A model generated the notes under the pieces. It was not told the DNA's origin and did not search any database. It saw nothing but the letters and a program-made list of their open reading frames with translations. A stretch of 63,896 nt of DNA, filler included, from Dugesia japonica (taxonomy: Eukaryota): assembly GCA_001938525.1 (NCBI GenBank). It is 6 parts of 6 records of this genome, joined end to end, with 100 filler letters (N's around TTAATTAATTAA, not from the genome) between each part and the next. Parts side by side here need not be neighbours in the genome. Positions count along the whole stretch, not along the records: positions 23,281 to 33,734 come from MQRL01635365.1; 5 more parts are not named here. One strand, given 5' to 3'. The position numbers and the translations under genes are program-made. Positions 7,582 to 46,900 of this stretch are shown piece by piece. Numbering within the stretch: position 1 is the stretch's first letter; each line of letters starts with the position of its first letter.

Positions 7582-7764
7582 ATGGCCGGGGAATTAAAGA
7601 CGACCTTACGTTATATTCGGAAGCAAAGGATGGACGCACGCCTAAAGCAGTTGATAGCCCACCGATTGTCGAATGGTAAAATCGAACATCCCAACGAAAC
7701 CAATCTCCAGTGTTTCGTTGAGATGTTCCCACTAGATTGTAAAGTGGATATGGATGAGGAATAA
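7582..7764 (+). CDS. LTR cassette A, 60-aa protein of unknown function
   Basis: AG 2 nt before ATG, AATAAA at the stop; homolog at 31242-31424 shares IAH.L..G.IEHP.ETNL.CFVEMFPL. Confidence 0.7.
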   Translation: MAGELKTTLRYIRKQRMDARLKQLIAHRLSNGKIEHPNETNLQCFVEMFPLDCKVDMDEE

Positions 7765-7978
7765 ACACCCGCTCTAATTTATGGGCCAACAGTTCTTATG
7801 AAATAACCAAAAAAAAGAATATATTGTTTTTATTTGTGTTTAATTCTTATGAAATAAACTCTAAATATTGTTTTTAATCGTGAATAATTCTTAGGAGATA
7901 AATCCTAAATATTATTATTTTATACATTTTGGTCTTTAAATAAAACCTTNCTAGTTATTATTCTAGAATCAGCATCGA

Positions 7979-8406
7979 ATGGAATATAAGTGGGAAGTAA
8001 GCATTGACGTCNACTCGGGTAGAACGGTGTTTAAAAGTATCAAAACCCGTATAATCGCGACACTGGAGTTCTAGTAGAGCGCTCCAACATCTCTACTGAA
8101 CAAATAATAGACGAAAGGCGCTGGGATGCTACTGATAGGAGTGCATATTACAGTTGGTGTGGCCCTAGACGAGAAAGAGTGGCTTTTTCCCCAGCTCCAC
8201 TTTCTTTTGAGAGATCATCCGAGGTGCCTCAAGTCGAGCGCATATGGCATGATGGGCCTTCTTTAATCGACATCATCACAAACCGTCTACCCTCCACTAA
8301 CCAACTGACTTCGTTTATCCAGGATTATTTGTGGAGTACTCGTAATGGGGGGTCTAGCAGTAATATTGAAAATGCAGAAGAAGAAACCACAGTAGTTTCT
8401 ATGTAA
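7979..8406 (+). CDS. LTR cassette B, ~140-aa protein of unknown function
   Basis: Acceptor TTCTAG at 7961-7966, MEYKWEVSIDV...NPYNRDTGVLVERSN...SFIQDYLW; homolog at 31544-31945. Confidence 0.6.
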
Positions 8407-8565
8407 TGGGTTTAAGTAAAATAAATGTTTAACTGGGTGTTCGTGTCATCTGCCTTGCTGTTTTGTTGTCTATGAGACCATACTGTCTTCATTTATTAAA
8501 CTAAAAATATTCTAATACACANNNNNNNTGAGATCCTATTATTTTTTATTGTATTTGTATTTTAG

Positions 8566-8924
8566 TGCATTCATCCTTGAATAGATCGCAGGCCCCGAAT
8601 AAAAAACTACGCAAAACCAGTGAGGATATAGAGCTCACGTTGGATTTATATAGGCTCGCTAAACGGCGATGGGAGGCTGAGACGGCCGCAACTGAGGCCA
8701 AAATAAGGCACTATAAACGGAAATGTCTATCCTTTAAATCAGAAGTAGAAGCGACCCAGAATCAAGAGCGGGTGTGGAAATCCCAATTCGAATCCTTTAC
8801 TGACATCATCAAGTCTTATCAAGAACGTGAAAATAAATTAATAGAGAATATATTGAAATTGAAGACTGATATACCATTGGCCCTACTTTTGATTGATAAA
8901 GGTACCCAGATTAACCGTTCCTGA
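8566..8924 (+). CDS. LTR cassette C, ~119-aa coiled-coil protein with C-terminal LC8-type motif; no genomic ATG (AG|TG)
   Basis: Open frame from TTTTAG|TG CAT TCA to stop, AATAAA at 8955; homologs at 23281-23480 and 32091-32449. Confidence 0.7.
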
Positions 8925-9043
8925 GTTTTCGTGTTTCAATTTTTGATTGAATTGAATAAATTTGTTATTATTTGTATCTTCTCTAATCTACTTCTTCGAT
9001 TTTATTTATGGAGGTGCCTACTTAAACTGTAATTTTTCTTTAG

Positions 9044-9224
9044 TGCCACGAATTGTTAGATTTGTTAGGTAGATTTCCCAAAGCAGTATATAGCCGACCT
9101 GTCAAGCCAAATGGGAAACCCTGCTTGGGTACAGTGGGACGACAACGACGACATAGCCTCGTTCAATTTTTTGGAGTCCGACACAAACCAGTGGTTAGAT
9201 CCTGATGTATTGGAAGACCTATAA
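9044..9224 (+). pseudogene. LTR cassette D, internally deleted
   Basis: TTTAG|TG CCA CGA ATT start joined directly to KQYIADLSSQMGNPAWVQW...LEDL*; about 200 bp missing relative to 23595-23956. Confidence 0.7.
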
Positions 9225-9500
9225 TTTGTAATGTTAATAGATGTTTTTGATAACTTTTGGTTACTTTTTGATCTATGTCTATAAGGGAAATTAATGAACC
9301 CAAAGTAAAGGTGTACGAGTGTGAACCCCCCGTAAAGGTTGAAGGTCAACCGCTCTGCACTGAATATCCAACTGAGGGGCATTGGATTTAAATTCTTGAA
9401 CGGGTCTCCCTGAGAGCTGTTTTTCCCCAGCCTTTGTTTTCATTACCAACTCAGGTGGGACCTCAACAGAATTATCATTATAATCATATAATATTCAGTA

Positions 9501-10968
9501 TGTTGAGGTGAAACACTTGAGAATGGAAAATAAACCAGCGATTAGGTACACCTGGAATTTGAAAAGATGTCACAAGAAAAAAAACAAAGAACACAGACAA
9601 AAGAAGGAGTTAGACCAGTTACCGAAAGGAATAATAGTAAGAAAAAACCGAAATAAAGGAACTAAATATTGGAAAAGATCCGTAACCTATTGAGTTACAA
9701 AGGAAGAAAAGAAATGTTGGAAGAAAAAAATGTACTGAGAGAACAAAGAAAAAGAAAATAACGGAAGAAAATAATTCATTAAATAAAAGAAAGAAAGTCA
9801 AAGGAAATAATCTACTTACAGAAAATAAATTTAATGAATTAATTAGTGAAAGAAAACAGCAGAATTAAATTAATTTCGGATCAGAAAACAAAGAAATGAA
9901 TATTGAATTAATATTTTGGAAGAAAATAAAATAAATNATTTATTTATTTAAATAAAATAAATCGAACAAATTAAAACAATTTAATTTTAAAAGAAAATTA
10001 AATATTTTGTGAAATATGGGGGGAAAAAACAACTTCCCATGGTGGAAATATCAGCAAATAAGAGGATTATGGTCCAGAAAGAATCGGAAAATTCAAAAAT
10101 GTCAGTTAGAAAATCATAAAAAGATCCAGAAAGAAGTTATAAGGGTTTGAAGACTGACAAATAATTTTGGAATCTTAAAATAACCACCAATAAAAAGAAC
10201 TCATGTGACGTTCAAGCCAATGTAAACGTCTGAAAAATCGTACGATTCCAAATAACCAATGAAAGAAATGGGAGTGCGAAGAAAAACCGGTATAAATACC
10301 GGTGCAATTTTCACAAAAATAAACACTTTTTATCAAAGAAATACGGAAATTAAAACGAAATTAACACAAAAAGTGATTATTTATGCGATTTGATTGATGA
10401 TGCAATGATTTCCGACTGGATTGCTATGACTTATTATTATGAAGGACATCTGGAGTCACTATTGGACACGAATGAAATGGATGCTATGCTCTTGTGCTTG
10501 CTCCGGATCGGGATCCAGATCACGTTAGTTTTCTTAGTTATGTTAATTGTTAGGTTATTGTGCCCCAAGTAAAATTTAAAGCTAATAATATATTTTTCTC
10601 TTATAAATTCTTTTATTTTTCTGAATTGATAATATAGCTATTAAAATTATAATCAAATATAGTGATCAAATTAAAGAACACTCCACAAAGCGGAAAATTA
10701 TAGGTGGATAATTGAAAAGTCTAATTGTACTTAGTAAATCAGGTGAGTATCATGTATAAAGAACCCGAACCAAAGGGGAGCGAGTCTGTACTCGAGTTAC
10801 GAGTCAACGTCTTCATTCCGAAGATCTGGCTTTTTTGGAGGACGCCAGATTCAAACTCATCGCGGGGTTTTACCAGGTCAATTACCCTAGATTTAATTTT
10901 ACATAAAGTTCGAAACCCCTAGATTTAATATTTTAAGGAATTAACCCCCCTAGGGTAAAACCCCAACA
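9501..10968 (+). mobile_element. Short solo-LTR-like relative of the family (1468 bp)
   Basis: Termini TGTTGAGGTGAAACAC...AAAACCCCAACA, GTA on both flanks, CCAAT boxes, TATAAATA at 10291, subterminal GAACCC..AAAGG..CGAGT.TG..GTCAAC motif shared with the long copies. Confidence 0.7.
10405..10572 (+). CDS. 55-aa ORF with C-terminal hydrophobic helix inside the short LTR
   Basis: ATG about 110 nt downstream of the TATA box; ...IGIQITLVFLVMLIVRLLCPK*. Confidence 0.35.
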   Translation: MISDWIAMTYYYEGHLESLLDTNEMDAMLLCLLRIGIQITLVFLVMLIVRLLCPK

Positions 10969-12532: not shown

Positions 12533-14305
12533 ATGGATATTTCATCATTAGTTTATGAACAGGTAATAATTATTTGATAAATATAATTTCATAATTTATT
12601 ACAAGTTGAAAAAAGTTGAAGAATTGGAAACTTTATATTATAACCTTTTAAATACTAAAAAAGATATTTCTAAAGAGGATCTTGAAGACGAAAATTTAAA
12701 ATTAAAGTATCGGTTAACTTGTCTCGAGAGATCTGTTAAGTTAGCAAAAGAAAATTTATCAAATCATTCAATTAGTGTGCTAGGATGTCTTACTGCATTG
12801 TTTGACAAAGCAATTAAAACCGCATATCCTACCATTAAAAATCCAGAAGTATTACTTAATCCATGTGTGAATCCTAAATTTGGTGACTATCAATGTAATA
12901 GTGCNNNNNNNNNNNNNNNNNNNNNNNNNNNNNNNNNNNNNNNNNNNNNNNNNNNNNNNNNNNNNNNNNNNNNNNNNNNNNNNNNNNNNNNNNNNNNNNN
13001 NNNNNNNNNNNNNNNNNNNNNNNNNNNNNNNNNNNNNNNNNNNNNNNNNNNNNNNNNNNNNNNNNNNNNNNNNNNNNNNNNNNNNNNNNNNNNNNNNNNN
13101 NNNNNNNNNCGATTCTATTTGGCATTTATTAAATTGAAATGAACATTTAATTTCAGTGTGAAGTTGCTCCTGCTGGTTTTATTAATATTTTCCTGGAAAG
13201 AGAATTCATTGCTGGAGAGATATCAAAAATTATCAATTGTGGAGTTTTACCTCCAAAAGTCAACTCGACACGAGTTATAGTCGATTACTCATCTCCGAAT
13301 ATCGCAAAAGAAATGCACGTTGGACATTTGCGATCGACAATTATCGGTGATTGTCTAGCGAGGTTGTTACGATTCCTGAATAACGACGTGCTCGCCGTTA
13401 ATCATATCGGAGATTGGGGAACCCAATTCGGTATGCTCATCGCTCATTTACAAGATAATTTCCCGAATTATCAAACCGAATCTCCGCCGATTTCCGATTT
13501 AGCAACCTTCTATAAAGCTGCTAAAGTGAGATTTGATTCCGACGAAGAATTTCAGAAAAGAGCGTACGAATCTGTAGTTCGTTTACAGAGCCATAACGAA
13601 GATTCTATCAAAGCTTGGAAATTGATTTGTGATGTGTCACGTTTGGAATTCGAGAAGATCTACAGCAGACTCGGAGTTGAAGGATTGGTGGAGAAAGGAG
13701 AATCGTTCTATCAGAAACATATGGAGGAGATCGTTGCGGAACTCGACGAGAGAGGATTAATGGAATTCAGTGAAGGCAGGAAAATTCTCAAATCCGAAGC
13801 GTGTGAAACTCATTTACTGATGGTGAAGAGCGATGGAGGATTCACTTACGACACTTCGGATTTGGCCGCTTTAAAATATCGATTGGTTGAGGAGAGAGCC
13901 GAATCGATTTTGTACGTGGTCGACAACGGGCAAGCCAAACATTTCGAGGGTTTGTTCGCTGTCGGCGAGAAGGTCGGTATTGTTAATCCACTGAAACACA
14001 GATTGGAACATGTCGGGTTCGGAGTGGTTTTGGGAGCAGACAGAAAGAAATTCAAATCTCGAGCGAACGAAACTGTGAGACTTGCTGATTTATTGGATGA
14101 AGGANNNNNNNNNNNNTTGGCTAAATTGAAGGAAAAAGGAAGAGATCAAGTAAACAAGATCAATCGATTTACTTTATTAGTGTGAATTCAGGAACTCTCG
14201 ACTGTGGAACTTGAGAAGGCGCAAACTGCTGTGGCTTACGGGTGCATAAAATACGCAGATTTATCTCACCATCGTACTAAGGATTACATTTTCTCTTTCG
14301 ATAAA
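12533..14305 (+). CDS. RARS1: Cytoplasmic arginyl-tRNA synthetase, 5' part (exons 12533-12562, 12606-gap, 13157-14149, 14192-14305; remainder not found in this window)
   Basis: [30 protein letters not shown] (HIGH motif), [42 protein letters not shown]; N-terminal leucine-zipper extension; GT-AG introns. Confidence 0.97.
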
Positions 14306-19961: not shown

Positions 19962-21386
19962 AGTAGATGGTTTAGAGCGCATGGGGCCACCCTATCCCAC
20001 GGAGAAAATTTTTACTGGCCCTGATTTTTAGCGTTTTATTGGTTGCACACACGTTTTTAGGGTTTTTGATTGACCTAAATTTTAAGGTCAAGTGGCCCCG
20101 ATTTTAAACGTTTCGATTGCTTAAAATTTTTAAGGTCAAGGTTAACTGGCCTCAATTTTTGATGAATGTTCAGATGAAGTCATCTTAGAGTTTTAAGGTC
20201 AAGGTAATATTTTTTTTGTTTAAATTAAGTGAAATTAATGATTTTTGTTTGTTTAAATTAATTAATTTTTACGATTGGTTTAAATGTACGGATTTTTTGA
20301 GGTTTTAATTTAAATTAAGTTATATAATGATTTTTATGGATTTTTCATAGAAAATCGATGGTAAAACTTATTTTGTTTAAAATTTAAAATTTTGAAGTAT
20401 AAATTTTAATCGCTCTGGTCAATATTAACATTAGAGGTTTCTCAGACAATATTAATAATAATATATTTATTTATTTAATTGTATCGCTATTAAATCTTTA
20501 TCAATCTTAATGGTTCTCCTAAGCCCTGGTTTTGAGGTATAGGTCACTAACTTCTTTGCTGAATTACATATTCTCAAGTTAATTCGTTTCTTCAAATTTT
20601 CAACTGATTTGCCATACAAGCTGTTTTTCATCAGCTTATAGTAATTTTTATTCAATTCATTCACACTTTCAGCCTTTAATTTGGTGTTTTCATCGATGTA
20701 TTGCTTGAAAATATGATCTTGTGGAAATTTAACTGTCTTATGAACATTTGTAACTTGCACACCTAATTGCAAGTACATCTGCAGTAATCCCCAGTGAACT
20801 ACGTAATTGAACTTTGAATAATGAGTCAACATTAATTTCTTGACCGTGCATCCTGGAGCATATTGATATTCGGCTGCAATGGGTAAGTCACTAAGATAAT
20901 CATGAAGTTCATTAGAAATCTCAATGTCAACTTCTAGTGTGTATCCATATTGTAACGACTCGAGATCTGCATATTTACATTTTTCTAAAACTTCTTCTAA
21001 TCCACAATATACTCATTCAAAATCTTTGTATGGTAACTTCTGGCTCAAAGCCCAACCCTACAGATTATTTGTATCGATGTATAACAACTCTCTGTTTTCA
21101 TCTGAAATAACATGATGTTTGTTGACAAAGGTGAGCCCACCTCTAATCACACCTTCGAAAAAAGTGTACATGTCGTTATCAGTTAAAAGCTCGATGGGTT
21201 CATTTAAAGTCATCAAAGCAGATGCCCAGCTCATACCTGGAATGCCAAAGAAATTTAAGGGTTCAAGACGGTTGTGAGCTAATGACTTGGCTCGGAATTG
21301 CTGCAAAAAGTCAGCTTGGAGAAAGACGTCCAACTTCATGTACACTATGACGTAGTGCACTATCCATCTACTACTATCCATCTACT
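19962..21386 (-). mobile_element. Internally deleted Polinton/Maverick
   Basis: Termini AGTAGATGG...CCATCTACT, flanks GAGCAA/GAGCGA (6-bp TSD, 1 mismatch), pPolB fragment inside. Confidence 0.85.
20467..21345 (-). pseudogene. Protein-primed family B DNA polymerase fragment
   Basis: GVIRGGLT, LLYIDTNNL*GWALSQKLPY, YTLEVDIE, YYKLMKNSLYGKSVEN motifs with stops. Confidence 0.9.
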
Positions 21387-23280: not shown

Positions 23281-24203
23281 CGCACGACCAAGAAAGAATT
23301 TGGAAATCGCAGGTAGAGTCGTTCGCCAAGATCATCCGGTCCAGCCATGACCGTGAAAAAAAACTGGTCAAAGGTATCCTGCATCTTAAGGAAAGATCCT
23401 ACTTCGAACCTTTCATGGTTGATAAGAGCACACAGACAAAATCTATATCGCGTGACTCAACTTTCTGTTTCTGGAAATAAAAAATCGAGTGTTGTAATCT
23501 TTGCNTTAGCGTGTATNACCTAAATTTTGATTAGACGAGTTCGATATCGATAATATTAATTATTTCTTCCCTATTATTAATCTTAATTATTTAGTGCCAC
23601 GAATTGTATTTCCAACAAGTTTACGGAGGTGTCACCGAATTATGCGTCGCTAGTTGTTAGAAGGACATTTAAAACGTAAGACCAAACGGGCCCTTCTAAG
23701 ACATCTCACCCAGCGGGATCGATTAATAAAAAAATTAGATTTATTGGTTAAAAAACAGAATGATTTGGCTGCACAAACCAAACAAATGTTACAACGAAAG
23801 GTAGATTTCTTAAAGCAATATATAGCAGACCTGTCAAGCCAATTGGGAAACCCTGTCTGGGTACAGTGGAATGACAGTGATGACATAGCTGCGTTTGACT
23901 TTTTGGAGACTGACACAAACCAGTGGTTAGATCCTGGTGTGTTGGAAGACCTATAATTTGTAATGTTAATAGATATTTTTTGATAACTTTTGGCTAATTT
24001 TTTATCAATGTCTATAAGGGCAAATAATGAACCCAAATTAAAGGTGTACGAGTGTGAACCTCCCGTAAAGGTTAAAGGTCAACCACTCTGTACTGAATAT
24101 CCTACTGAGGGGAGTTGGATTTAAATTCTTGAACGGATCTCCCCGAGGGCTGTTTTTTCACAGCCCCTTGTTTTCTTTTACCAACTCAGGTGTGGCCCCA
24201 ACA
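23281..24203 (+). mobile_element. Gene-bearing giant LTR, copy 2 (3' part; cassette C end, cassette D with nonsense codon, terminal region)
   Basis: ...MVDKSTQTK..., ATTTAG|TG CCA CGA ATT at 23595, terminus GGCCCCAACA. Confidence 0.8.
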
Positions 24204-25248
24204 CAATGAAGCATTTATATATTTTGACGAAATTTATACAATAATTACTGAAATTGATGTATGATTTAATGAAGTTTGCTAGTATTTCATTGTAGTTGGT
24301 ATAAATTAATACATCTAAATTGGATCTATCATTTTATGATTACATTGATCAGTGTTTGGTAAAGTTTCTTTGGTAAACATAAATACCTATTACATTTTCT
24401 TTGTTGAACTTGTAATAAAAATTGAAATTAATCATACATACCCTTCTCAACCAGTTCTATGTAAATTTTTAAAGTCTTATATGATGTAATTATTGAATAA
24501 ATTGAATATATAGTAGTTGGTTGTATGAACGGTTTCATTTAGTGAATGGGTTTATTATGTATACTGATCATTGCTTTGTTATACTTGCATTTGCATTGCA
24601 GATATATTGCACATTGACTTATATTTTATGTAAATCTTTAGAAATTTTTATAGGTTTTTTCAATCAATATTTGTGGTCATAAAGAAGATCGATGTTAGTT
24701 CTCATTATTTTATTAGTGTCCGAAATATTTTCTTTCATCTTTGAACGAATAAGCATATTCTGCATTTCTATTTCTTCTTCCGTATTCACTTCTTCCTCTT
24801 CCATTTCAGTAATATTTAAGTGTTTGAGATCATAAATATCATTTTTTTATTAAAAGTACAAAGTTTTATAATTAATTAATGATTAAATGCGATTAAATGA
24901 TTAAATTTTATTGGACACAATCCATAATTTTATAGAATTTGATATATCTATCAATGAAATTTGTATGCATTTATGTTTTAATGAAATTGCTAGATCCATA
25001 TTTTAATCTAATTATGTATACTTGAATGAAATTGATGTATCTCCAAATGAAATTAAAGTATATTGATATAAAATTATTCATATTGTAATATCATTGTTGT
25101 ATATATGTGTAGAAAATTTTATATAAAAAATACTATTGGTAATGTCAACCAAAGACATTAAAAATAAATTTTAAATTAACAACATTTATTAAATTTAAAG
25201 ATTTATTCTTCTTCACTATAACCTTCAACAGGTTTTAATTAATAACTA

Positions 25249-26156
25249 TGTTGGGGTGAAACAACCAGTTATCTAAAAGGAAAAAGAAGACAGAAAATGA
25301 AATTTACAAAATAACACAAAAAGAGCCAAAAATAGAAACATCTGAAGAATAATTAAATCAAACGCAATCATGTTAATTAAAGAAAAAATCAAATTTATAT
25401 TATAAAAACAAACAAATTTGTTATTTCAAAATAATTAATTAGGAAAGAAATAGTAATTAATTTCATTGAAAAATAAAGGAAAATTAGACCAAAATCAGTT
25501 GTTCATGAACAATACCACTCTGGTTAATCCCAGAATGTTGAGGTAAGAAAAATTGAAAAAAAGTGTTATCTGGTCAATGGGATTTTGTAATTGGAAAACT
25601 TTATTATCATCAGAGGAACTATCACATGGGTTGGAAAATTGGGCCAATGAGGGTCCTAAAAACAAAAAAAAGAAAGCACCAAATCTCACCTGATGGTCTA
25701 AAAATAACGGCGGGTGGTGAAACTCTGCAAAAAATCTAAAAATTGGCACCAACGCCAATGAGAATCAAGGATTTCAAAAATATATATCCAATAGTAATGA
25801 TGCCGGGTTTCATCGGAAAACCATATAAAAGGCACAATGATTTAGTAGAAAAATAATAAAAAATTTAATTTTTCACCACAGCTCAAGTATTGTAGAACTA
25901 CCACTTGTGAGCAAATTACTTGAAGTAACCACGTATTAATTTTCAAGAAACTTGTTGGATTATTGGAATTAGGCCAAGTAACACTATCATTAGTTTGACC
26001 AGACTTAATTTTATAAAAAAGGAAATTAGAAAAGGAGTATCATCGATCAATTGTTGGGAATTCGTCTTCACCAAAAGAAATAGTCAAGCCGTTGCAGAAA
26101 TCCTATAGATTTTGATAAATTTAAAAAGTAATTTTGTTGTTATAATTTATATCATA
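25249..26156 (+). mobile_element. 5' part (U3-like) of a diverged LTR of the same family
   Basis: Starts TGTTGGGGTGAAACAACCAGT; patchy similarity to 28589-29150 (GGGCCAAT..TCCTAAAAA); TATAAAA near 25824. Confidence 0.65.
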
Positions 26157-26495
26157 CACGCTACTCCATTCCATTACCAACCTCCAGCTCCCCCACCAGT
26201 AGTTCAGGCCTTTATATATATATAATATATACCCATAATAAAATATATTATTACCGTAAATGAACTCTTTATTCTTTTCTATTTAAAAATGTTTTATTAA
26301 ATACCGATGATGAATGAGTAAAATGAGTGAATTTATTCATATTAGAGATGTCAATCCATGATAGATTATTATTAATTACCATTCCGCTTATTATTAAGGT
26401 TGAATATAAATGGTGAAAATTGAAGCCAAATAACAAGAAATTTATTTTTTCAACAAATATATTACCTACTTCGGGAATCCAATAATNTCTCAGCA

Positions 26496-27043
26496 ATGGA
26501 TGGATTGTATCTCGTCCAACAAACCAGAGATAAAGTTATCAAATGCACCACTTGCAAACAAGAAGCTCTATTACTGCAAGGAATAGAGAAATTACCAAGG
26601 AAAATATTCCATCACCCAAATTGCTCAAACCAATCAACGAGGAAGAAATACAAACAACAGCATGCAGAATCGAATGGAATATGTCACGTATCCGAATAGA
26701 AATGGCAGCTGAATTACAAATCAATAGACTGCATAATATCCTAAAGACAAGTCAGGAAAATATCAAGCAACTGATAAAACAAACAGTCGCTGAGAAAGGT
26801 ACTGAGTTAATCACGTCATACGAATTATACCAAAGATCATGTAAACTAGTAGAACCTCAAGTGAAATATGAGCAAGAATGGGCATTAATCGATAATAATT
26901 GTGTTATCTGCTTAGAAGGAATCATCGAGGTTGTATTCCTGCCATGCGGACATTTTAAGACCTGCTATAAGTGCGCTGTAAATCTAAATGAATGCCTTGT
27001 GTGCCGGAAGGTAATCGAACGTAGGGTATTGGGAATAAAATAA
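26496..27043 (+). pseudogene. IAP-like gene (degenerate BIR-like Zn motif + C-terminal C3HC4 RING), one frameshift near 26625; true start probably upstream
   Basis: AMDGLYL...DKVIKCTTC-x18-HHPNC then, in the shifted frame, CVICLEGIIEVVFLPCGHFKTCYKCAVNLNECLVCRKVI. Confidence 0.75.
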
Positions 27044-27156
27044 ACTTAAAATAAACTTTTAGTAAATAAACTTAAAATGTAAATAATGTATAATTATCTA
27101 TATATAACTGTCAAAATAATGGTATAACAAAATAACCACTTTCTCTAATTTTAGAA

Positions 27157-28328
27157 ATGAACAACGAAAACTTAATCACCCATCTCCGCAACGAGATTCA
27201 AATATTGCAAATTCAAACTCGAACCCTTACCACTATATCTGAAGTCCTAAAATGGAAACTGGAGTCCAAAATAGATGCACTGTCCAACTTTCAATTACAA
27301 AAATACAACAGTGANNNNNNNNNNNNNNNNNNNNNNNNNNNNNNNNNNNNNNNNNNNNNNNNNNNNNNNNNNNNNNNNNNNNNNNNNNNNNNNNNATAAA
27401 AAGCAACATCGATGCCAACAGAGCAAAAATCAACGCCATTAAACAGGCTCGGATTTGGAAAAGTAAATACGAGGAAGTTGAACCCAAAAGAAAAGAGGTA
27501 GAGAACCAATTATCCATCGAACAAAAAAATAGTCAAATCCTTAGGATGGAATTGTTCAACATGCAGTTTGAGAAAAGTCATCTCGCTACTGAAAATCAAC
27601 TTCTGATAAGTTTGGCAAATCGAGAGGGGGTGAAGGCTGGCATCGATAAACTATCTCTGGAATTCGAGAGCATAATTCAGGATTATCAACAAAAAAATGA
27701 GTTTTTACAACAATACATAGAAGCCTTGGAACAGGAGATTCTTGAACTAAGTACACTCTGCCGAGAAAAAGAAAATGAGATCGCAGAAAAACAACAACAC
27801 TTAATTGAAACATTCTCCGAAATTAAGAAACTTCTGAAATCTTATACAATTCGCCAACCTATCTCCCACCCAATAATGTTAGCAACTCCTCTCCAGCCAA
27901 GTGGTCTAACCACCTTCAATTCTCCCAAATCAACCTTAAACCATGCTGCTCCTGAATGGCAACCAACAATCTCAGGCCTATCAAGACAATCCACCCCATT
28001 AATATTTCAAGATCTCATAGTAGCTCCAGTTAAAACTAGGATACCCGAGTGGATAAATAAAATAATCGATTAGGCTTCCTACATAACTCCAACATCCTCC
28101 ACAATTCCCACCCAACATAGAAAACCGGTCCCATTGGTAATTCAAGAACCTCAAAGCATTTGTCTCAGTTCTGTAAAACTCAGTCAGATACCCAGTAAAA
28201 CCTCAGTAATCGACAACAATCAATTTAAAAGAAACCTATCCCAATCAATAGTAACCGAAATGCTACGGAAATATGGCTCTGATATACAACCGAACAACCA
28301 GAACAACCTAGTAGATGAAGTCGACTAG
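27157..28328 (+). pseudogene. Long coiled-coil protein with P/S/T-rich tail (gap inside; one in-frame TAG at 28071-28073)
   Basis: CTAAT..TTTTAG|AA ATG; ORFs 27546-28073 and 28134-28328 are in one frame; AATAAA at 28349. Confidence 0.6.
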
Positions 28329-28549
28329 AACGATCTAGGACCGATGTAAATAAACTGTAAATAATAACTAAATGATTCAATGAATTAACAAACTCTGAAT
28401 GTATCAACGTACACTGTATTTAAATGTATATCGTAGAACAAGTTTTATGTATGCGTCATGGGATAACATGTAATGACCTTAAAATTTTGCCTTGTCTGTT
28501 AATTTTCATTAGGGTTGAGGGGTTTTCTGCAACAGGGNGGAATTACGGC

Positions 28550-28588
28550 AAATTCCGGGACGGAATTTAAACAAGACGGAGAGCGATT
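28550..28588 (+). promoter_or_regulatory. Gypsy-type 3' hairpin and polypurine tract upstream of a 3' LTR
   Basis: AAATTCCG-GGA-CGGAATTT perfect hairpin, then AAGACGGAGAG, then TGTTGGGG. Confidence 0.65.
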
Positions 28589-31241
28589 TGTTGGGGTGAA
28601 ACACCCAGTAGAATGAGAAATCAAAGGGAGTCAATAAACATTCACCATCAAAACAAAAATAGTGTCACGGGGAGGAAGTAGAAAATAAAACAAGAAGAAT
28701 CGGGATCACATTGATAAACGAGAATAGAAAGACTCAAAGGATTAATGGTATTAATTATATAATCGGAAGAATTAATAAAATTAATAAAGAAAATGGCTAA
28801 CGAAAAAGAAAATAATTACAAAAAATAACAATTAATTTAAACGAAAAAAATTAATTAAAATTGAGACAAAATCCGTTTTAACCGAATAACTTCGCTCAAG
28901 GAAATCGGAAAGAATTCGGACAAAAAAATATGAAAAGAAAACAACAAGATGCATTGAAAATGCTAAAAGACGAAAACTTACCACCATTCCGAGGGTTGCT
29001 GCAGGGTCCTGAAGATCGGGCCAATAAGAATCCTAAAAATAAAAATAAAACAAAGACACAATTTTCAGGTGTCTCTCTAAAAATAGCTGCCAATTGTGGC
29101 ACCAAAACTTGAAGAAAATTGTAAAAATAGTTGTTTTTTCTGCTAAAAACAAGGGTCCTTTTATAGGATTTGACTTACACTCCGACTTCTTCTAGATTTG
29201 CTGATTATTTTTAGAGCAGCTTTTTTTTTGATTTCATTGGTTCCATCGTCAATTTTCTACAACTCACGAAAACAAATTTTACACCGATCCTCAACATACA
29301 ACTCAAAAGAATTTACTAATCAATTACCAGACTCGCATTAAGTTACAAGAAAATATTATCTGTCAAGAAGGATTCACTTTCAGGAGGAAACTTTTTAGTA
29401 ATTTCTAAATAATTGAATATCAATTAATCTTATTTCAAGGATAAGTGAAGTAATCAGCAGAACCTAGACAAGAAAAATTAGTTCTCCGAGGAAACCGTTC
29501 TTATCAGTTACTACCGATTGCCAGCACTGTTGCAGAGACCCTCTAACTAATATTGAAAAGTAAAATATTATTTTTATTTATGTTAAAAGTTGTAATATTA
29601 TCAAATATGGAATATTATGTAGCTTAATAAATGATGTCATGATAAAAAATCTTAATTTGTTATATTTTCTCCTTTAAGATTGTTGATCTATAATAGATAA
29701 ATGATTAATCATTTTGTATGCAAATTAATTAAATAGAAAATTCCTTGAAAAATCAGTCTTAATTAATTAATTGATTTTGGAGTTAAAGTAGCTAATAGAA
29801 ATGTCATGAATTTACCTTACTTAAAAATAAAATTTTATTTTGCCCAAAGTGAAAGAACAGAAAATATGCACTATGAATAAGTGCAATACTTTTTCGATAA
29901 TCTTATAACAACCACCGATTAGAAATTTCATGAAAAGAAGAAGTTTTCAATGTTATTTATTTCTTATGTTAAAATCCCATATTCATTAGTTAACTGATTA
30001 ACTGCATCAATTAGATAGGCTACTGTTAACTTGGAGTGGGAATAGAATGACGAATAAACATCTCTGACTGTTAAATGATATTATACAGTAGATTCCGTGT
30101 TAGTTTTCATTAAATTAAAGGAAAAAGAGTTAATATTTAAATATGTTAAAGCTTAGTTAAACTGAGATCGGAACACACATATATATATATTAAAAAAATA
30201 CATGAACTAACCGATTCATCCATCCTGTTTTCATATTAATAATTTTTATAACAACACAAAATATAATATCCAAAATTGTAACTCAAGATAAATAAAACTC
30301 CAACAATTTATTTAGCAAAATTTATTGAACGATATTTACCTATTTCGATATTTAGCCATGATCATAAATCCGCAGGTTGTGATGATAGATGGCGGCGAAC
30401 GTGCTTAACTCAGGTTCTGACCGACTGTGTTTTCTGACATGGAATGGCCACAAGTAGTGCAGTAGAATGAGAATCCCTATCGCATTTTCCAATTTTCTAA
30501 AAGACAGTAAGCCATCACCTAAAATTATGACTGAAAAGTGATACTATTAGACAATGCTTGTGTTAATGCTTACTCTAACCAGACATACACACTCGAGAAT
30601 AATGACACACAACCCGACACTATTGCAAATCAAATCAATCCGTTAGTAAGGGGGATAATCACCAAGCAACGGTGATGCGTAAAAGTTTAAAAGTAAAAAG
30701 ATATATAAAAATACAAATTTTATAATTATTATAATTAATGCGATTTATAACCTTTAATGGTTCAAATCATCATTATTACAACTAGCAGTAACGGCCTTAA
30801 TTTTTTTATATGCAATAAACACCATATAACCCACATTACTATTAGTAATTTATCTAGAGCAACGCCACTCCCCTGACATAATATTCTATTAAATAGCGCT
30901 TTAAGATTATGATATTTATTTACCACAATGGTGCCATTCCTAGTGTCAAAATTAATATTTTTGGTTGTTACACACTTCGGTAATTAATTTTTCTCTAAGA
31001 TATTATTATGGCCAGAATAATTCGGTTTCTGTTGATTAATGTCGTGGTATTACTTAGTAGAATTTTTGCCAGTTATGCCATCCCAATTGATTTTAGTACA
31101 ATCAAAATTAATATCCTTCCCTTAAGAGTTATCCTGTTAATACTGTATACCCCGCAGGGTTATCAAGAGTCAGTGTCTATTATTCAGCTTAGGGGATTAA
31201 GTTATCAATTTAAGATGGTGGTTAATGATTTCATCTTTAGC

Positions 31242-31424
31242 ATGCCAGACAAATTATATCATACCCTGCGTTGGATTGACAAGCAGCGACGCCTCAGTCG
31301 GACGAAGCAGCCAATAGCTCACCTACTGATCAAAGGGGAAATAGAGCATCCAGACGAAACGAACCTGAGTTGCTTTGTAGAAATGTTTCCCTTAATGACA
31401 GAAACCGGTTTAGACGCAGAATGA
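31242..31424 (+). CDS. LTR cassette A, 60 aa
   Basis: CTTTAG|C ATG; MPDKLYHTLRWIDKQR...GEIEHPDETNLSCFVEMFPL; AATAAA at 31453. Confidence 0.7.
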   Translation: MPDKLYHTLRWIDKQRRLSRTKQPIAHLLIKGEIEHPDETNLSCFVEMFPLMTETGLDAE

Positions 31425-31543
31425 TTCGCGTTGTTAGTAGTGTTGTCATGAAAATAAATTATATGCGCTATCTTGTCGACGTTTTATAATTGTTTATGGA
31501 AATTTTGGTTTTATTCTAATCATTCTCATACTTTAATTAGGAG

Positions 31544-31945
31544 ATGGAATCTATTTGGGAATGCATAGTGGATTGACGCACCCGTAGAATAATTTTCCGG
31601 CGGCACCACAATCCCTACAATCGAGATGCCGGGATCTTAGTAGATAGATCAAATCTACCCCCCATTGAAGCAGCCGTTGCTCGTATCCAGAGCTTTGGAG
31701 AACGACTTAACTATCGCCAGTGGAATGGTCCTGAGCGTAACCACGCTACTCCATTCCATTACCAATCTCCAGCTCCCCCACCAGTAGTTCAGGCCTTCAT
31801 AGCTAATCTGCTCTGGGGCGTTAGGGAACCTTCCGGGGTGGAGGATGCGGAAAATACAGCTCCCCTGATACTACAAATCCCGACTCTTGATGTTATCCTG
31901 ATTTCAAATTTTGTGTTTCTTTTAATAAATAAGTGTCTTAAGTAA
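31544..31945 (+). pseudogene. LTR cassette B (one in-frame TGA)
   Basis: CTAAT...TTAATTAG|GAG ATG; MESIWECIVD*RTRRIIFRRHHNPYNRDAGILVDRSN...AFIANLLW. Confidence 0.65.
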
Positions 31946-32090
31946 TATTAACATACTCTTTAATCCATTGAGAAAATTGTCTTTAATAGTGTTATTCCAT
32001 GTTTTATGTTTTAAGTAAAATTGAGTAGATATTAGTAAATCAGTCATCAAGTCGATGAAGGGAAATGATTTTTATGATATTTTCTTTTAG

Positions 32091-32449
32091 TGCATTCTTC
32101 GTTAAATCGCCCCCCAGCTCCAACCAAGAAAATCAGAGACACCAGTGAGGACCGCGAAATGACGTGGGACCTCTACTGACTGGCCAAACGACGTTGGGAG
32201 GCGGAAGTGGCTAATGCGAATAGTAAAGTCCTCCGTTATAAGAAAAAGTGTATTCTTTTTAAAAAGGAAGCGGAGGCCTCCCATTTACAGGAGCGCACTT
32301 GGAAAAAACAAGTGAAATCTTTCTCAGAGATTATCCGGTCCGGCCATGACCGAGAAAATAAACTGGTTAACGATATTTTGATTCTCTGGGAGAAAATCCC
32401 ACTCGAGCCGCTAATGGTCGACAAAAGTACTCAGACGAGCCGCTCTTAA
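32091..32449 (+). pseudogene. LTR cassette C (frameshift + TGA), ends MVDKSTQTSRS
   Basis: TTTTAG|TG CAT TCT TCG TTA AAT CGC; aligns to 8566-8924. Confidence 0.7.
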
Positions 32450-32568
32450 CTTGATATTTCATTATTGTTTGAATTAATAAAATATTCATTTGTATGAGAT
32501 TCTTCTGTTACTTGTTTTCTCGAGGCATAGATGAGGTATTCATTAATTTAATTGTACTTTTCCTTTAG

Positions 32569-32945
32569 TGTCTCGTATCGTGTTTCCGACTAGTTTGAGG
32601 AGGTGCCACCGTATTCTGCGCCGTCTATTATTAGAGCGACACTTAAAACGCAAATCAGAACAAGCTCTTCTTAAGCACCTTGACCAGAGAAATCAGCTCA
32701 TAAAAAAATTGGATTTGGTAGTCNNNNNNNNNNNNNNNNNNNNNNNNNNNNNNAAAGCCCTAGAGGCAGAGAACAGGAAGTTGCTGTTAAGAAAAATAGA
32801 CTTCCTAAAACAATACATCTCTGATCTTTCCCGGCAGATTGGGAACTCCGCTTGGATTCATTGGGGCGATGATGAAGATATCACCGCCTTCAATTTTACA
32901 GTAGATGACCCAGATCAATGTGCTAGTGTGCTAAACGATCTATAA
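32569..32945 (+). CDS. LTR cassette D, ~125-aa basic/coiled-coil protein; no genomic ATG (AG|TG)
   Basis: CTTTAG|TG TCT CGT ATC; RIVFPTSLRRCHRI...KIDFLKQYISDLS.Q.GN..W..W.D; AATAAA after the stop. Confidence 0.7.
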
Positions 32946-35336
32946 ATGTTATAATAATAAATGTTCCGAGGAGTATTGGTTTAATTTTTGTGTAATTAAG
33001 GGAAGTTTTTGAACCAAAATACAAAGGTTTATGGGTGTGCACCTCCCATTAAGAGTGAGGTCAACCACCATGAACTGAATACCTACCCTAGGGGCGGTAG
33101 GGTAAATTCTTGAAAGAGTTCCCCTGCGGGCTGTTTTTCCCCAGCCGCATTAATTTTTCATTCAGCTCAGGTGGGACACCAACACTACTATTAATTGGAT
33201 CGGAAGTTTTGATTGGGTTACTCGCGCTTCTGAGACTATCACACTACAGACATTCCCAGAATATCCAAAATATATATTTTGGTGGCAAATACCCACAGAG
33301 ATAAGCACAATTAAACCTACTACTAACATAATAACATCAACCCCCATAAAGTTAAATATAACGATTAACTCGAGTTTAAACGACAATCATAAGATAAAAA
33401 TTAATACAGAAAGTACATATTTAAAATACATTATAAGAAATCGAAATTCAGACCTAAATAAATATTATAAAAATTATCAATACTATAAGAATAAGATTCT
33501 ACAACTTTGGGGCACTACAAAAAATCCAGAACCTGAAAGCAAAATAATAAAAAGAATTTCCTTATAATTTTGGGAACAGGTGTAATACTCTTCCTCGTAG
33601 CGTTTATAGTATCAATTTATCAAATTCACAAACGCTATAATTGGAAGAGACAGCGTTATCGGAGTCGCAATACCCCAAACTCACCGGACTATGTTCAATG
33701 GACACAAGTATAAACACTTTCCAAAATGTATATTNNNNNNNNNNNNNNNNNNNNNNNNNNNNNNNNNNNNNNNNNNNNTTAATTAATTAANNNNNNNNNN
33801 NNNNNNNNNNNNNNNNNNNNNNNNNNNNNNNNNNTTAGTGAATCGGTTATTAAGTTCTTATTGGTGTAAATGTTTGAAATATTTATATAAAGTTTAATTT
33901 GATAAAAACAATTCAATGTTAAATTGTTATAAGCAGATTTTCATATATTTTCTGGAAATATATATAAATTGAGAAAATTTGGATATTAATAAAATAGACA
34001 AACGAAAATTAAATATTATTTTTTTTTAAAAATAGCTTTTGCTGTTTTTTATGAAATATCTCCATCTTATGTCATTTGCGGATTTACAAGTAAATTTTCA
34101 GAAGTTTCGAAAGTGTTTGTCTGTTGAACCAATAGAAATCAGTTTATTTCACAATTATATTATCAGTCGAAATATTTTGTAATTACATTAGTATTCATCT
34201 TTTGGAAAACAAGTTAGCTATTTAAATTTTTATCTATATATTTATATTTATTATATTAAATTTAAGTACTTCGCTTACTTTTTAAGTCGCTATTTATTTT
34301 TCTTAATAATTTTTATTTTATATTATTTATTATAATTTATTAATTTTCAAGTTTTGCATTTATCGTTCAACTATTGGAAAAATAAAAATAAATTGCATAA
34401 CTAAAAAAATTTCTAAATTTTATTTTTTTAATATTATTTAATTATCTTTTTAAAAGAAATGTTTAAAAAATAAAAATTATTTTTAAAATTTCTAAAAGTA
34501 TATATAAATTTTGATTTTCAGAAATTATAGAAATTCTTTTTAAGAAAATTTAATATTAATAAGATTTAGTTATTAATAATAAACAATAAATAACCGAAAA
34601 TTAAAACGTAAAAACTTTTTTCCAAAATTAAATAAATGAATTAAATGACATATAACAAAAAAATCAGAAAAAAATTTTTTCTGTTATTGTAATACATTGG
34701 GAATATAAATCAAAATTTTATTTCTTTGATATATTCAATTAACAGGCAATTATCTCAGCATTATTTAAATAAAGCGTCTAATATGAAATTTGGCTGTACT
34801 TGAAATTCTGAGCAGAATTTTTAATAAATTATCAATTATCTTTTGGTATCAAAAGGAAAAATTAATAAAATTCTAAAATTTACATTTTATAAAATTTATT
34901 GGATTTCAATTGTCTTTAATTTTAAAAAATAATTAAATTAACTAAATGATTTNNNNNNNNNNNNNNNNNNNNNNNNNNNNNNNNNNNNNNNNNNNNNNNN
35001 NNNNNNNNNNNNNNNNNNNNNNNNNNNNNNNNNNNNNNNNNNNNNNNNNNNNNNNNNNNNNNNNNNNNNNNNNNNNNNNNNNNNNNNNNNNNNNNNNNNN
35101 NNNNNNNNNNNNNNNNNNNNNNNNNNNNNNNNNNNNNNNNNNNNNNNNNNNNNNNNNNNNNNNNNNNNNNNNNNNNNNNNNNNNNNNNNNNNNNNNNNNN
35201 NNNNNNNNNNNNNNNNNNNNNNNNNNNNNNNNNNNATCATTCTGTTATTTATATTCACCATATTTAAAAATGCAATTCGTGTGTAATTTATTAGAATACA
35301 ATTTTATTGAATTATTTTTAGTTCTGGATACTAATT

Positions 35337-43915: not shown

Positions 43916-46900
43916 TTTTCGTACTTCGTATTTCTCATGTTTTTTATGTATTGTAATTTGGTGGAATTGAAACCAATACAAGAAATCAAAACAGCTAAGG
44001 AAATGTTTGCAGAGATCTATGTGTACATATATGTTCTCACATTTACTATTGAAGAAATTCGACAAGTTAGATGTTTTCATTTTTCTAAATTATTATGGAT
44101 ATTGTTTAATATAAATAACATTACTTTAAATATTTTTTAATTTTCATAAGTAGACTTTTTGAAATTTCTAACACAAATAAGATAGGAACGTTGAAAATTA
44201 TTTTCTTTCGTCTTTATTAAATAGTATATATTGTATAGTGTATCAGAAATTACAAATTCTACACTGGATTTTCGTTTCTAAGTTAAATGACAATGTTTTA
44301 AATGATTTCTAAAATATCTTTTGGAAATATAATTCATTTAATTATTCTTTCTAATATTATCAAATGTTATAATTATAAATATACTAATGGCTAGGTTGAT
44401 TTTGTTGTTTATGAAGGAATATGTGATTATTAAAATAAATATAACTCTAAATATGTGTAACTGTAAAAGGAAATATTTTTTTTGATATTTTGTAATTAAT
44501 TCTAACTAGAAAGGTGAAATAATTTTGGTAGAATAATTTTCTCCCAATATCTAATGAAAATTCATTTCTTCCAATTTCTGTATATCACATTATATAAATT
44601 AATTTATTGTGATATATCCTTTTATAATTGCAATCATTGAGAGAATAATTGTTGGACATAACCATTGATCGTTTTTCAGATTTCATTAAAATAAAATCTT
44701 CAATTAAAATTTGTTTTTTTGGTTTTTGATAACATTTCTATATGAAGACATATATCCTATTAAAGCATGTTTTACATGACTTTTAAATATTTTTAATTTT
44801 ATTTTTATACGCTTATTGGTTTACCATATAAATTTTTCAATTTTACAAAAATTTTTGGATTGTCCGACTTGGTCAAATTAGTATTTTTTTAATATAATTT
44901 TCTATTTTTTATATATTATTGATATAGTTGATGTGAATTTTCTCTTCATGTTTTTATTTTTACTGCTTTTCTTCTACTTTCTGATTTTTAAATTTCTTAT
45001 TAATTTATATATTCGATGTGTTTTGCTTTAATTTTTGTATCGGCATATTTATATATTTGTTCCGATTTTATTTGTACATCTGTTATTTGTGCAATAATAA
45101 TTTTTTTATTTAATAATATTTACTGTTAAATAATCTTATTTGTACATATCTTTATGTATATTTTCATGTGATTACAAAATTTCGATGTCGATTTTATTTT
45201 TTCATTTAAATTTTCTCAATCGAGGTAAATAAATATATGTATATATAAAGTTGCTTTTTTCTTATAAAAATGAAACTGAACCACGTTATACACAAGCAGC
45301 AAATGCTAAGTTTATTTTTAGCTTATTTTATCTTATTTTAATTAAATTCAAATTTTTTCATATTTTTTGTTTTGTTATTAGATACTTGATCAAGAGCTAA
45401 CTAGTATAAAATATAAATTCCAAGAATACTTTTCTCGAATCTGGAACAAATTGGACATAGTTATTATCGCTTTTTTTATTTCAAGTACCGTTACGAGATT
45501 TACAATTCCTAGTGAAAATTTCATGTTATGTCGCTGTTTATTTGCAATGACATTGAGCATGTTCTTTCTCAGATCAATGCAGTTTTATTTTGTAAACAAA
45601 TCTATTGGACCTAAAGTTATCATGATTCGAGATATGGTTGAGTTATAATTTTTCTCAAAAATTTATTTAGATTATTCTTTTTTATAGCTTCGAGATATTT
45701 TGTTTTTTTTAAGCATATTTGTGATTTTTATTTTGGCATATGGAACTTTATCTCATTCTTTGAGATTTCCCAATAGCAAATTGGACTTAGCACTTTTTAA
45801 GGATATTGCCTACATTCCGTATTTTCAGACATATGGAGAATTAATGCTGGACCAATTTGAAAGTATTTATCTTAAATAAATTTTTTATATTTAAATAATT
45901 TCTGATATTGAATTTGTTATTGAATTTGTTATTGAATTTGTTATTGAATTTGTTATTGAATTTTTTATTGAATTGAATTTGTAAAGGACCGTTTTGAGTT
46001 TGTAAATTTTATCTCAAATTCTGTTGTAAGTAATAATGACGACTTTATGGTGTCCTTTGATATTTCTAGCTTATTCACTATTGTTCCTTTGCTGGAAACA
46101 ATAGATCTTTGTTGTGATATATAGGAAGTAATGTGAGTGATCAATCTAAAATGAATATATCTGCTTTCGTTAATTTTTCACTTTTCCAACGACTAATGTT
46201 TCGTTTCTTTTAACAATGAATTATATTAACAGATTGATGGAGTAGCTATGGGTTCTCTTTTAGCTCCGAAATTAGCGTGGATTTTCTTGAATAAGCATGA
46301 AGAACGAATGAACTTACTTACCAAAAATTTGTTGACGATGTTTTTCTTATTTTTGTTAATCCTGAACATGTTCTGCTTTCCCAGAGTTTTATGAATTCGT
46401 TATATCCTAATATTCGGTTTACTGTAGAGGAAGAAAGAAATGGTATTTTGCCTTTTTTGGATCAACGCATTATGAGACTGAAATCTACAGAAAGAAAAGT
46501 GATACTGGCTTGTATGTTACCCCAAATAATTTTTGTAATCCTGCTTATAAAAAGAACATGATAAAGTATTTAATGCTTTGTTCATGGTCATTGTTCTCAA
46601 TTTATTCCAAATCCATTAAAAGTATTGAACATTTATTTAAGTTACTGCAAGCAAATGGATATAGTAAACAATTTTTAAGTTCATTGACTTCGTTGACAAT
46701 TGACAAAATATTGGTTGGTAATAATATTGGTTTTGATAAAAAGATTGAAACTGTGTTGAATAATCCTAAACCCTATAGCACTTTATCTAATTGGATTGGG
46801 CCATTTGTTTTATCGATCGCTGAAGGTTTTAAAAAGTTAAAGAATTCGATTTTGAAAGCTGCTAAGGATTTTCTTTTATTGAAAATTGTTTCTAATATTG

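What the first reader, a model, noticed from the sequence alone, without database searches (positions are those of the whole stretch)
26496..27043. IAP-like (BIR-like + RING) cargo gene in the 3' internal region of the retroelement
Seen: two overlapping ORFs join across one frameshift into GLYL...D.VIKCxxC-x18-H-x3-C plus a terminal RING of the CxxC...VFLPCGH..C..CA..L..C.VCR type, about 1.5 kb upstream of the PPT. Known: BIR+RING is the inhibitor-of-apoptosis architecture captured by baculoviruses; canonical BIR spacing is C-x2-C-x16-H-x6-C, so this one is atypical. I recall IAP-like cargo being reported for planarian Burro elements, so novelty needs checking. Inference: the element modulates host cell death or ubiquitination.
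Basis: partly seen in the sequence, partly recalled or inferred. Interest (0 to 1): 0.7.

Follow-up and report, generated by a model that had tools for sequence, protein, structure and literature searches.

The report
Decayed IAP cargo of giant retroelement
This is a broken copy of an anti-cell-death (IAP-like) gene carried in many copies by a large LTR-type repeat, a kind of cargo already described for planarian Burro retrotransposons; the small extra is that its odd zinc module is a conserved, disguised BIR domain that standard profiles miss.

Summary
Two frames (26424-26630 and 26627-27043) line up with five intact, unnamed IAP-like proteins. The RING is IAP-type. The atypical C-x2-C-x18-H-x3-C spacing is not decay: 5 of 5 relatives keep it. 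Pfam and a PDB profile search miss it as BIR, but it aligns with BIRs and an intact relative models as BIR + helical bundle + RING (partly circular). Four of the five relatives have a second, upstream BIR that this copy lacks. The gene is high-copy and lies 1.5 kb before a purine-rich tract and an LTR-type start, so it is not single-copy host DNA. This copy is frameshifted, and two RNA runs lay almost nothing on it. BIR cargo in Burro elements, and a BIR+RING 'B-IAP' that protects stem cells, are in print. Burro membership is likely but untested: no gag-pol adjoins it and I had no reference sequence. Verdict: known kind, dead copy, modest new detail.

The parts
26424..26630 (+). Cryptic BIR-like module (R-x3-F ... 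G-L-Y ... C-x2-C-x18-H-x3-C); the frame is closed by a stop just upstream; one N at 26488
   Evidence: model of relative P0004 residues 37-110 matches BIRs at Z 6.2-6.8
26622..26663 (+). Interval that holds the frame break between the module and the linker
   Evidence: a contig of run X8 spans 26541-26786 with 14 mismatches and no gap, so it shares the break
26627..26890 (+). Helical linker, possibly UBA/CUE-like as in cellular IAPs (weak)
   Evidence: linker alone finds P0155 (E 1.5e-4) and P0004 (1.1e-3) first among 163 proteins; modelled as a helical bundle, residues 126-177; CUE-like match only Z 4.5
26891..27043 (+). C-terminal IAP-type C3HC4 RING and stop codon; all zinc ligands present; two positions invariant in the relatives are substituted
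27034..27070 (+). Three AATAAA hexamers (27034, 27050, 27065), possible polyadenylation signals; weak in AT-rich DNA
27136..28328 (+). Second cargo ORF region: coiled-coil-like, then Pro/Ser/Thr-rich; interrupted by an N gap (27315-27395) and a stop at 28073; no family found
   Evidence: high-copy
28550..28588 (+). Very conserved hairpin plus purine-rich tract (15 of 20 purines) abutting the LTR-type start; probable polypurine tract
   Evidence: (bin depth 53068; RNA reads of other families match only 28550-28605)
28589..29550 (+). LTR-type repeat B, starting TGTTG; high-copy to about 29350-29550. Whether it runs on to the CAACA end at 33184 is unresolved
25249..26110 (+). LTR-type fragment A, only 60% like B (332 of 556 columns), so probably not the partner LTR of the same insertion
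26157..26237 (+). 60-bp piece 97% identical to 31742-31801, plus a TA run; absent from another copy, so a local insertion
   Evidence: joint 26156-26238

Best explanation
A pseudogenised accessory IAP-like gene from the 3' internal region of a high-copy, Burro-type giant LTR retroelement of an AT-rich animal (most likely a planarian; inferred). Intact members encode [BIR1]-[cryptic BIR2]-[helical, perhaps ubiquitin-binding linker]-[RING]. Likely mechanism in intact members (inferred from IAP biology and from the published account of Burro1 B-IAP): the protein is made from its own intronless accessory ORF when the element is expressed. It acts as a RING E3 ligase that restrains caspases and keeps the host cell alive, which favours the element. 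The cryptic BIR2 keeps four zinc ligands but lacks the Trp of the peptide-binding groove (alignment; groove numbering recalled), so it is probably a structural or protein-docking BIR rather than a caspase/Smac peptide binder. Shown here: architecture, conserved spacing, multicopy state, position before an LTR-type start, frame break, near-absence of RNA. Inferred: Burro identity, orientation, E3 and anti-apoptotic activity. This copy most likely makes nothing functional.
For: RING: the 10 best PDB sequence hits of 18 are cIAP1, cIAP2, XIAP and BIRC7 RINGs. Five intact relatives cover module, linker and RING collinearly and form one clade with the window copy, 97/86. P0016 carries a Pfam BIR (E 6e-20) and P0036 a weaker one (6.5e-6) upstream of the module. 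Run X1 lays 4278 contigs on 25000-29800, most under 95% alike, with summed depth 756-17771 over the gene against 6-18 for single listed contigs; run X8 of a second organism label shows the same profile. Several contigs join the downstream ORF region to the tract and LTR start through different deletions (table 5). LTR-type TG...CA termini recur in the window. Literature: BIR, BCL2-like and ankyrin motifs in Burro 1-4, and decayed Burro fragments in Dugesia japonica (PMC6431247 section 7); B-IAP = BIR + RING (PMC13465017 passages).
Against: No gag, protease, RT or integrase next to the gene: the 87 ORFs scanned gave no such Pfam hit. The only RT-like remnant, seen by eye, is about 33 kb away. 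No Burro reference sequence was available, so identity with Burro or B-IAP is untested. A and B are only 60% alike and I saw no target-site duplication. The genomic context of the five relatives is unknown. BIR assignment of the module is weak by sequence alone. No listed contig bridges the RING and the downstream ORF. The species is not shown by any search; the neighbouring ArgRS only says animal-like.
Confidence: 0.75

Rival explanations
1. Same cargo gene, but the element runs on the minus strand: 28589 is the end of a 5' LTR, the 'PPT' is a primer-binding site read backwards, and the IAP-like and coiled-coil ORFs are antisense accessory genes.
For: The purine tract is imperfect (15 of 20) and ends in pyrimidines before the TG. 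The 55-nt block is unusually conserved across families, as primer-binding sites are. The termini are inverted repeats, so they give no direction. A likeness to a tRNA 3' end is from recall only.
Against: Read on the minus strand the site does not begin with TGG. All conserved ORFs nearby are on +. First mates in the bin fall mostly on minus (9.2 against 2.6; 1.4 against 1.0), which would mean + RNA in a stranded library, but neighbouring bins are mixed, so this is weak.
Confidence: 0.12
2. Cargo of another mobile element (a Maverick/Polinton or a TG...CA DNA transposon), or an amplified host IAP retro-pseudogene family, that only lies next to an LTR here.
For: pPolB fragments at 20470-21381; Mavericks are expanded in Dugesia (10.64898/2025.12.11.693146 passages); depth over the RING is far higher than over the module; no pol adjoins.
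Against: High depth runs on from the gene to the tract and the LTR start, and other copies join the downstream ORF region to the tract. The pPolB pieces are 5 kb away, on the other strand, beyond a gap. BIR cargo is documented for Burro.
Confidence: 0.08
3. The split is functional: a sub-lineage that lost BIR1 makes either a recoded full product or a short linker+RING protein from an internal Met (26678), acting as a RING-only ligase or a dominant-negative IAP.
For: A contig 6% diverged shares the break, while near-unique DNA in the same run differs by 2 of 169 letters, so the break sits in more than one copy. No indel at that place is among the 12 best-supported of 48 indel rows. Both frames stay open over a 163-nt overlap. 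All RING zinc ligands are kept.
Against: No X XXY YYZ slippery heptamer by eye between 26622 and 26663; no stable downstream structure (z -1.1 and +1.4). No RNA reads over 26610-27736 in either run. Two invariant RING positions are substituted. 36 indel rows were not shown, and short contigs may break at the site.
Confidence: 0.05

Closest known systems
Burro1 / GYPSM1 giant Gypsy-like LTR elements of planarians and their B-IAP (Jurka 2007, Grohme 2018 and a 2026 Dev Cell paper, all seen only second-hand through PMC6431247 section 7 and PMC13465017 passages)
   Same: BIR + RING cargo in a high-copy LTR-type repeat of an AT-rich animal genome; accessory ORFs; decayed copies with frameshifts are described for Dugesia japonica.
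   Different: This copy is broken and gives next to no RNA reads, whereas BURRO1 is called highly abundant and active (PMC8532177 passages). No polyprotein is attached. The second-hand text names one BIR and one RING, while the relatives here have a canonical or near-canonical BIR plus a cryptic second one. I could not see whether the 2026 paper already describes that.
Cellular IAPs (cIAP1/BIRC2, cIAP2, XIAP, BIRC7, DIAP1)
   Same: BIR(s), helical linker, C-terminal RING of the same subtype (E 8e-10 to cIAP1 RING); the best Foldseek hit of the relative's model is cIAP1 3t6p.
   Different: Module spacing is C-x2-C-x18-H-x3-C instead of C-x2-C-x16-H-x6-C; the groove Trp is missing; no CARD; intronless; multicopy.
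Baculovirus, nudivirus and other large-DNA-virus IAPs (IAP-2, IAP-3)
   Same: Compact BIR(s)+RING protein captured by a mobile genome; top hits in the viral structure library, E 2e-8 and weaker for named ones.
   Different: Carried by a retroelement; only 14-21% identity; no sign of a shared capture event.

Membership tests
IAP-type RING (zf-C3HC4_3) | C3HC4 ligands at the C-terminus, above the Pfam cut-off, closest to IAP RINGs | tested here: met
   52.9 bits against cut-off 27; top 10 of 18 PDB hits are IAP RINGs
BIR domain (PF00653) | Pfam BIR score above the gathering cut-off | tested here: not met
   0 hits for 4 window pieces over this module and for 5 of 5 module rows; PDB profile search gave no BIR among 7 hits at E<=10
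BIR domain (PF00653) | Canonical C-x2-C-x16-H-x6-C spacing | tested here: not met
   x18-H-x3-C in the window and in 5 of 5 relatives
BIR domain (PF00653) | R..F, G-aromatic, C, C, P, H, C in BIR order | tested here: met
   these residues share columns with canonical BIRs in a 32-row global alignment; custom BIR HMM gives 6.5 bits, 2 of 1000 shuffles as high; hhalign E 0.004 but probability only 8.7%
BIR domain (PF00653) | BIR fold (two helices, three-stranded sheet, C-terminal helices) | tested here: inconclusive
   model of relative P0004: pLDDT 73-90 over residues 41-100, Z 6.2-6.8 and rmsd about 3 A to several BIRs. The alignment fed in held canonical BIRs, Z is under 8, and a family-only alignment gave no usable model
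Type II (peptide-binding) BIR | Groove Trp and acidic residue after the second Cys (recalled) | tested here: not met
   Trp absent in the module of the window and of P0004, P0036, P0151, P0155; present in BIR1 of P0016
Burro / GYPSM1 elements | High copy number | tested here: met
   4278 contigs laid, summed depth 756-17771 over the gene against 6-18 for single contigs; not a true copy count
Burro / GYPSM1 elements | BIR-type accessory cargo inside LTR-type termini | tested here: met
   gene 1.5 kb before a tract and a TG start; other copies join the downstream ORF region to that start
Burro / GYPSM1 elements | Giant gag-MATH-BCL2-env-PR-RT-RH-IN polyprotein in the same element | tested here: inconclusive
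   none next to this fragment; the fragment looks 5'-truncated and no genome is held
Burro / GYPSM1 elements | Multi-kilobase paired LTRs with target-site duplication | tested here: inconclusive
   28589 to 33184 would give 4.6 kb, but depth falls after about 29350 and no link was found; A and B 60% alike, no duplication seen
Burro / GYPSM1 elements | Sequence identity or RT phylogeny with Burro 1-4; identity with published B-IAP | not testable with these tools
   no repeat library; the two primary papers are not held
Functional IAP | Intact, expressed ORF | tested here: not met
   frame break; RNA depth 0 in X14 and at most 0.25 in X17 over 26288-27736, about a quarter of each run read
Functional IAP | E3 ligase activity and caspase restraint | not testable with these tools
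   needs biochemistry on intact natural members

The most novel reading that the evidence does not exclude
These retroelement IAPs carry a BIR subtype invisible to Pfam (C-x2-C-x18-H-x3-C, no peptide groove). One sub-lineage dropped the canonical BIR1 and spread with module and RING in different frames, so it may supply a recoded or RING-only, possibly dominant-negative regulator rather than an inhibitor of apoptosis. That would be diversification of cell-death cargo among giant retroelements.
Probability: 0.1. Interest if true: 0.6.

Novelty: new member of a known kind. Interest (0 to 1): 0.27.

Why it matters
IAP capture by giant planarian retroelements is already in print, with a reported benefit to stem cells and regeneration. 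This locus adds a decayed, apparently silent subfamily. It also shows that relatives have two BIR-derived modules, one of which standard profiles miss, so domain counts for this cargo may be too low. If the cryptic module proves to be a non-groove BIR, it gives a natural series (canonical BIR1, degenerate BIR1, no BIR1) for asking which part of the protein protects cells.

Tried and rejected
No whole genome is held. Word-indexed protein searches with the C-terminal piece found nothing; the exhaustive search did. Pfam, PDB sequence, Atlas and phage tblastn searches with the module found no BIR. Folding P0016 on a 5-row alignment failed (mean pLDDT 34). Genomic context for relatives: viral contigs gave 0 of 41 candidates; metagenome contigs gave 9 loci (L001-L009) that look like generic RING/IAP matches by coverage and were not followed. 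No RNA holder was listed by the run index; this blank is not used as evidence. Intron at the break: rejected, the interval is shorter than in relatives. Programmed frameshift: no slippery heptamer by eye, no stimulatory structure. A and B as the LTR pair of one insertion: unlikely at 60% identity with ORFs this well preserved between them. BIR1 remnant upstream of 26448: none by tblastn. No Rfam or tRNA hits. The coiled-coil ORF has no convincing family. Earlier scan findings: none. Paper searches: searches returned 0 papers, one search returned only PMC13465017; some searches were listings. None of these shows that the atypical spacing is unpublished, because the two primary papers and their supplements could not be read.

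Full report
1. Observation. The window is AT-rich animal-like DNA (GC mostly 20-35%; nearest ArgRS is the human cytoplasmic enzyme, E 1e-121). At the stated place two + frames overlap: 26424-26699 holds G-L-Y...K-C-x2-C-x18-H-x3-C, and 26534-27043 ends in a RING. The RING passes Pfam zf-C3HC4_3 (E 3e-14), and its 10 best of 18 PDB hits are cIAP1, cIAP2, XIAP and BIRC7. Each motif occurs once in the window and never in 60 shuffles.

2. The two halves are one gene. An exhaustive search with 26624-27040 gave 2506 proteins at E<=0.001, most of the 150 listed matching the RING only. P0004 and P0016 matched across the linker, and P0036, P0151 and P0155 joined them. The N-terminal frame, never used to find them, matches them at the collinear position (E 1e-10, 3e-6, 2e-7) and ranks these five first among 163 stored proteins. 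The break lies between 26622 and 26663, a stretch shorter than in the relatives, so it is not an intron. In a linker+RING tree of 48 rows (46 of the 47 BIR-bearing hits, P0004 and the window; the one hit without a matching RING was dropped) the window copy and the five relatives form a clade at 97/86, nearest to P0016 at 93/59. No annotated flatworm host IAP was in the tree, so the donor is not named.

3. The odd module. C-x2-C-x18-H-x3-C is present in 5 of 5 relatives, so it is maintained rather than decayed. Against BIR status: no Pfam hit for the window pieces or the five module rows, no BIR among 7 PDB profile hits, hhalign probability 8.7%. For it: a custom HMM of canonical BIRs, family members left out, scores the window piece at 6.5 bits with 2 of 1000 shuffles as high, and the relatives with 0-10 of 1000. 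In a 32-row global alignment its R, G, C, C, P, H, C share columns with canonical BIRs. A model of P0004 (mean pLDDT 75.8) shows BIR topology, and residues 37-110 match BIRC6, cIAP1, DIAP1, NAIP, XIAP and survivin BIRs at Z 6.2-6.8, rmsd 2.8-4.3 A. That test is partly circular, since canonical BIRs were in the input alignment, and the family-only attempt failed. P0016, P0036, P0151 and P0155 have another BIR upstream, strong in P0016 and weak in the others; P0004 and the window do not. So the window's module is the second, cryptic BIR of a two-BIR protein. It lacks the groove Trp, which BIR1 of P0016 has (significance recalled).

4. Context. LTR-type starts occur at 9501, 25249, 28589 and 63320 and CAACA ends at 9468, 24203 and 33184, all in the same orientation. 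Only the start at 28589 is preceded by a purine-rich tract (15 of 20, against 8-10 for the others) and a hairpin. Between the gene and that start lies a coiled-coil ORF of no known family. Laying four runs on 25000-29800 at 80% likeness: X1 gave 4278 contigs, 3204 of them under 95% alike, with summed depth 756-17771 over the gene and 53068 at the tract, against 6-18 for single listed contigs; X8, another organism label, shows the same profile at lower depth. Summed depth is not a copy number, but single-copy host DNA is excluded. Several contigs join the downstream ORF region to the tract through different deletions. Depth is lowest near 26000-26120 and falls after about 29350. Fragment A (25249) is only 60% like B, so it is probably a neighbouring fragment and not the 5' LTR. 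No gag or pol was found next to the gene (87 ORFs). The LTR length (about 1 kb or 4.6 kb) and the orientation stay open; + is favoured.

5. State of this copy. It is frameshifted, has no BIR1, differs at 13 of 45 columns invariant in four relatives (two of them in the RING, whose zinc ligands are intact), and two poly(A) RNA runs, a quarter of each read, give depth 0 (X14) and at most 0.25 (X17) over 26288-27736. One X8 contig spans the break with 14 mismatches and no gap, while near-unique DNA in that run differs by 2 of 169 letters. So the break is not an assembly error and is probably shared by another copy. How widely is unknown. I found no recoding signal (and inspection).

6. Mechanism. 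Shown: architecture, conservation, amplification, position, decay. Inferred: intact members are RING E3 ligases that restrain caspases in cells expressing the element, with BIR1 doing any peptide binding and the cryptic BIR serving as a docking or structural unit. This copy is most likely dead (about 0.75 for the whole reading). Rivals: minus-strand element with antisense cargo (0.12), another carrier (0.08), functional split gene (0.05).

7. What is known. PMC6431247 (section 7 read whole; passages) reports BIR, BCL2-like, MATH and ankyrin motifs in Burro elements, env homology, and decayed fragments in Dugesia japonica. PMC13465017 (passages) says Burro1 acquired a B-IAP region of RING and BIR that protects stem cells from caspase-mediated death, citing a 2026 Dev Cell paper that I could not read. 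Grohme 2018 was also not held. PMC8532177 (passages) calls BURRO1 highly abundant and active. Passages of PMC11410931, PMC13238120 and two preprints added nothing on the IAP. Text and supplements that I could not see may already describe the atypical module. It works like an IAP cargo of the Burro kind; membership in Burro is probable but untested, and the planarian host is an inference.

8. Verdict. A real feature and a new member of a known kind; this copy is a pseudogene. The cryptic conserved BIR variant is the one point of some interest. Interest 0.27; most novel reading 0.10 likely, 0.6 if true.

Noticed in passing
window 7580-9468, 23281-24203, 31000-33184 (+): Three copies of a repeat that ends in an LTR-like CAACA and carries several small ORFs of no known family. 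Differences pile up at third codon positions (59 of 112, 29 of 52, 37 of 77), so these ORFs were under selection. They may be genes inside a long LTR.
   Followed up: partly
window 28550-28605: A 55-nt block (hairpin, purine tract, LTR start) is far more conserved than its flanks; RNA reads of other families match only this block.
   Followed up: partly
window 26157-26237: A 60-bp piece of the small-ORF repeat (97% to 31742-31801) plus a TA run sits just upstream of the gene and is absent from another copy.
   Followed up: partly
window 13151-14185 (+): Uninterrupted 344-codon arginyl-tRNA synthetase catalytic region, closest to the human cytoplasmic enzyme; a large exon or a retrocopy.
   Followed up: partly
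window 20470-21381 (-): Fragments of a protein-primed family B DNA polymerase (PF03175, E 1e-9), probably a decayed Maverick/Polinton.
   Followed up: no
window 61900-62900 (+): Decayed Gypsy-like reverse transcriptase remnant with a YLDD motif, seen by eye in several frames; no link to the finding shown.
   Followed up: no
window 9501-10966 and 63320 onward: A second LTR-type family sharing the terminal motif (the two are 64% alike); the first copy ends in CCCCAACA at about 10966, 1.47 kb from its start, and begins 32 bp after the end of the small-ORF repeat.
   Followed up: no
window 3930-4620 and 46395-47079: Inverted pair, 72% alike over about 700 bp, overlapping ORFs without Pfam hits.
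   Followed up: no
window 45382-45645 (+): Weak ion-channel (Ion_trans, PKD) hits below cut-off, possibly a host exon.
   Followed up: no
protein P0148, first BIR: An unrelated IAP hit also matches the C-x2-C-x18-H-x3-C pattern inside a BIR, so the longer Cys-His spacing occurs elsewhere among BIRs.
   Followed up: no
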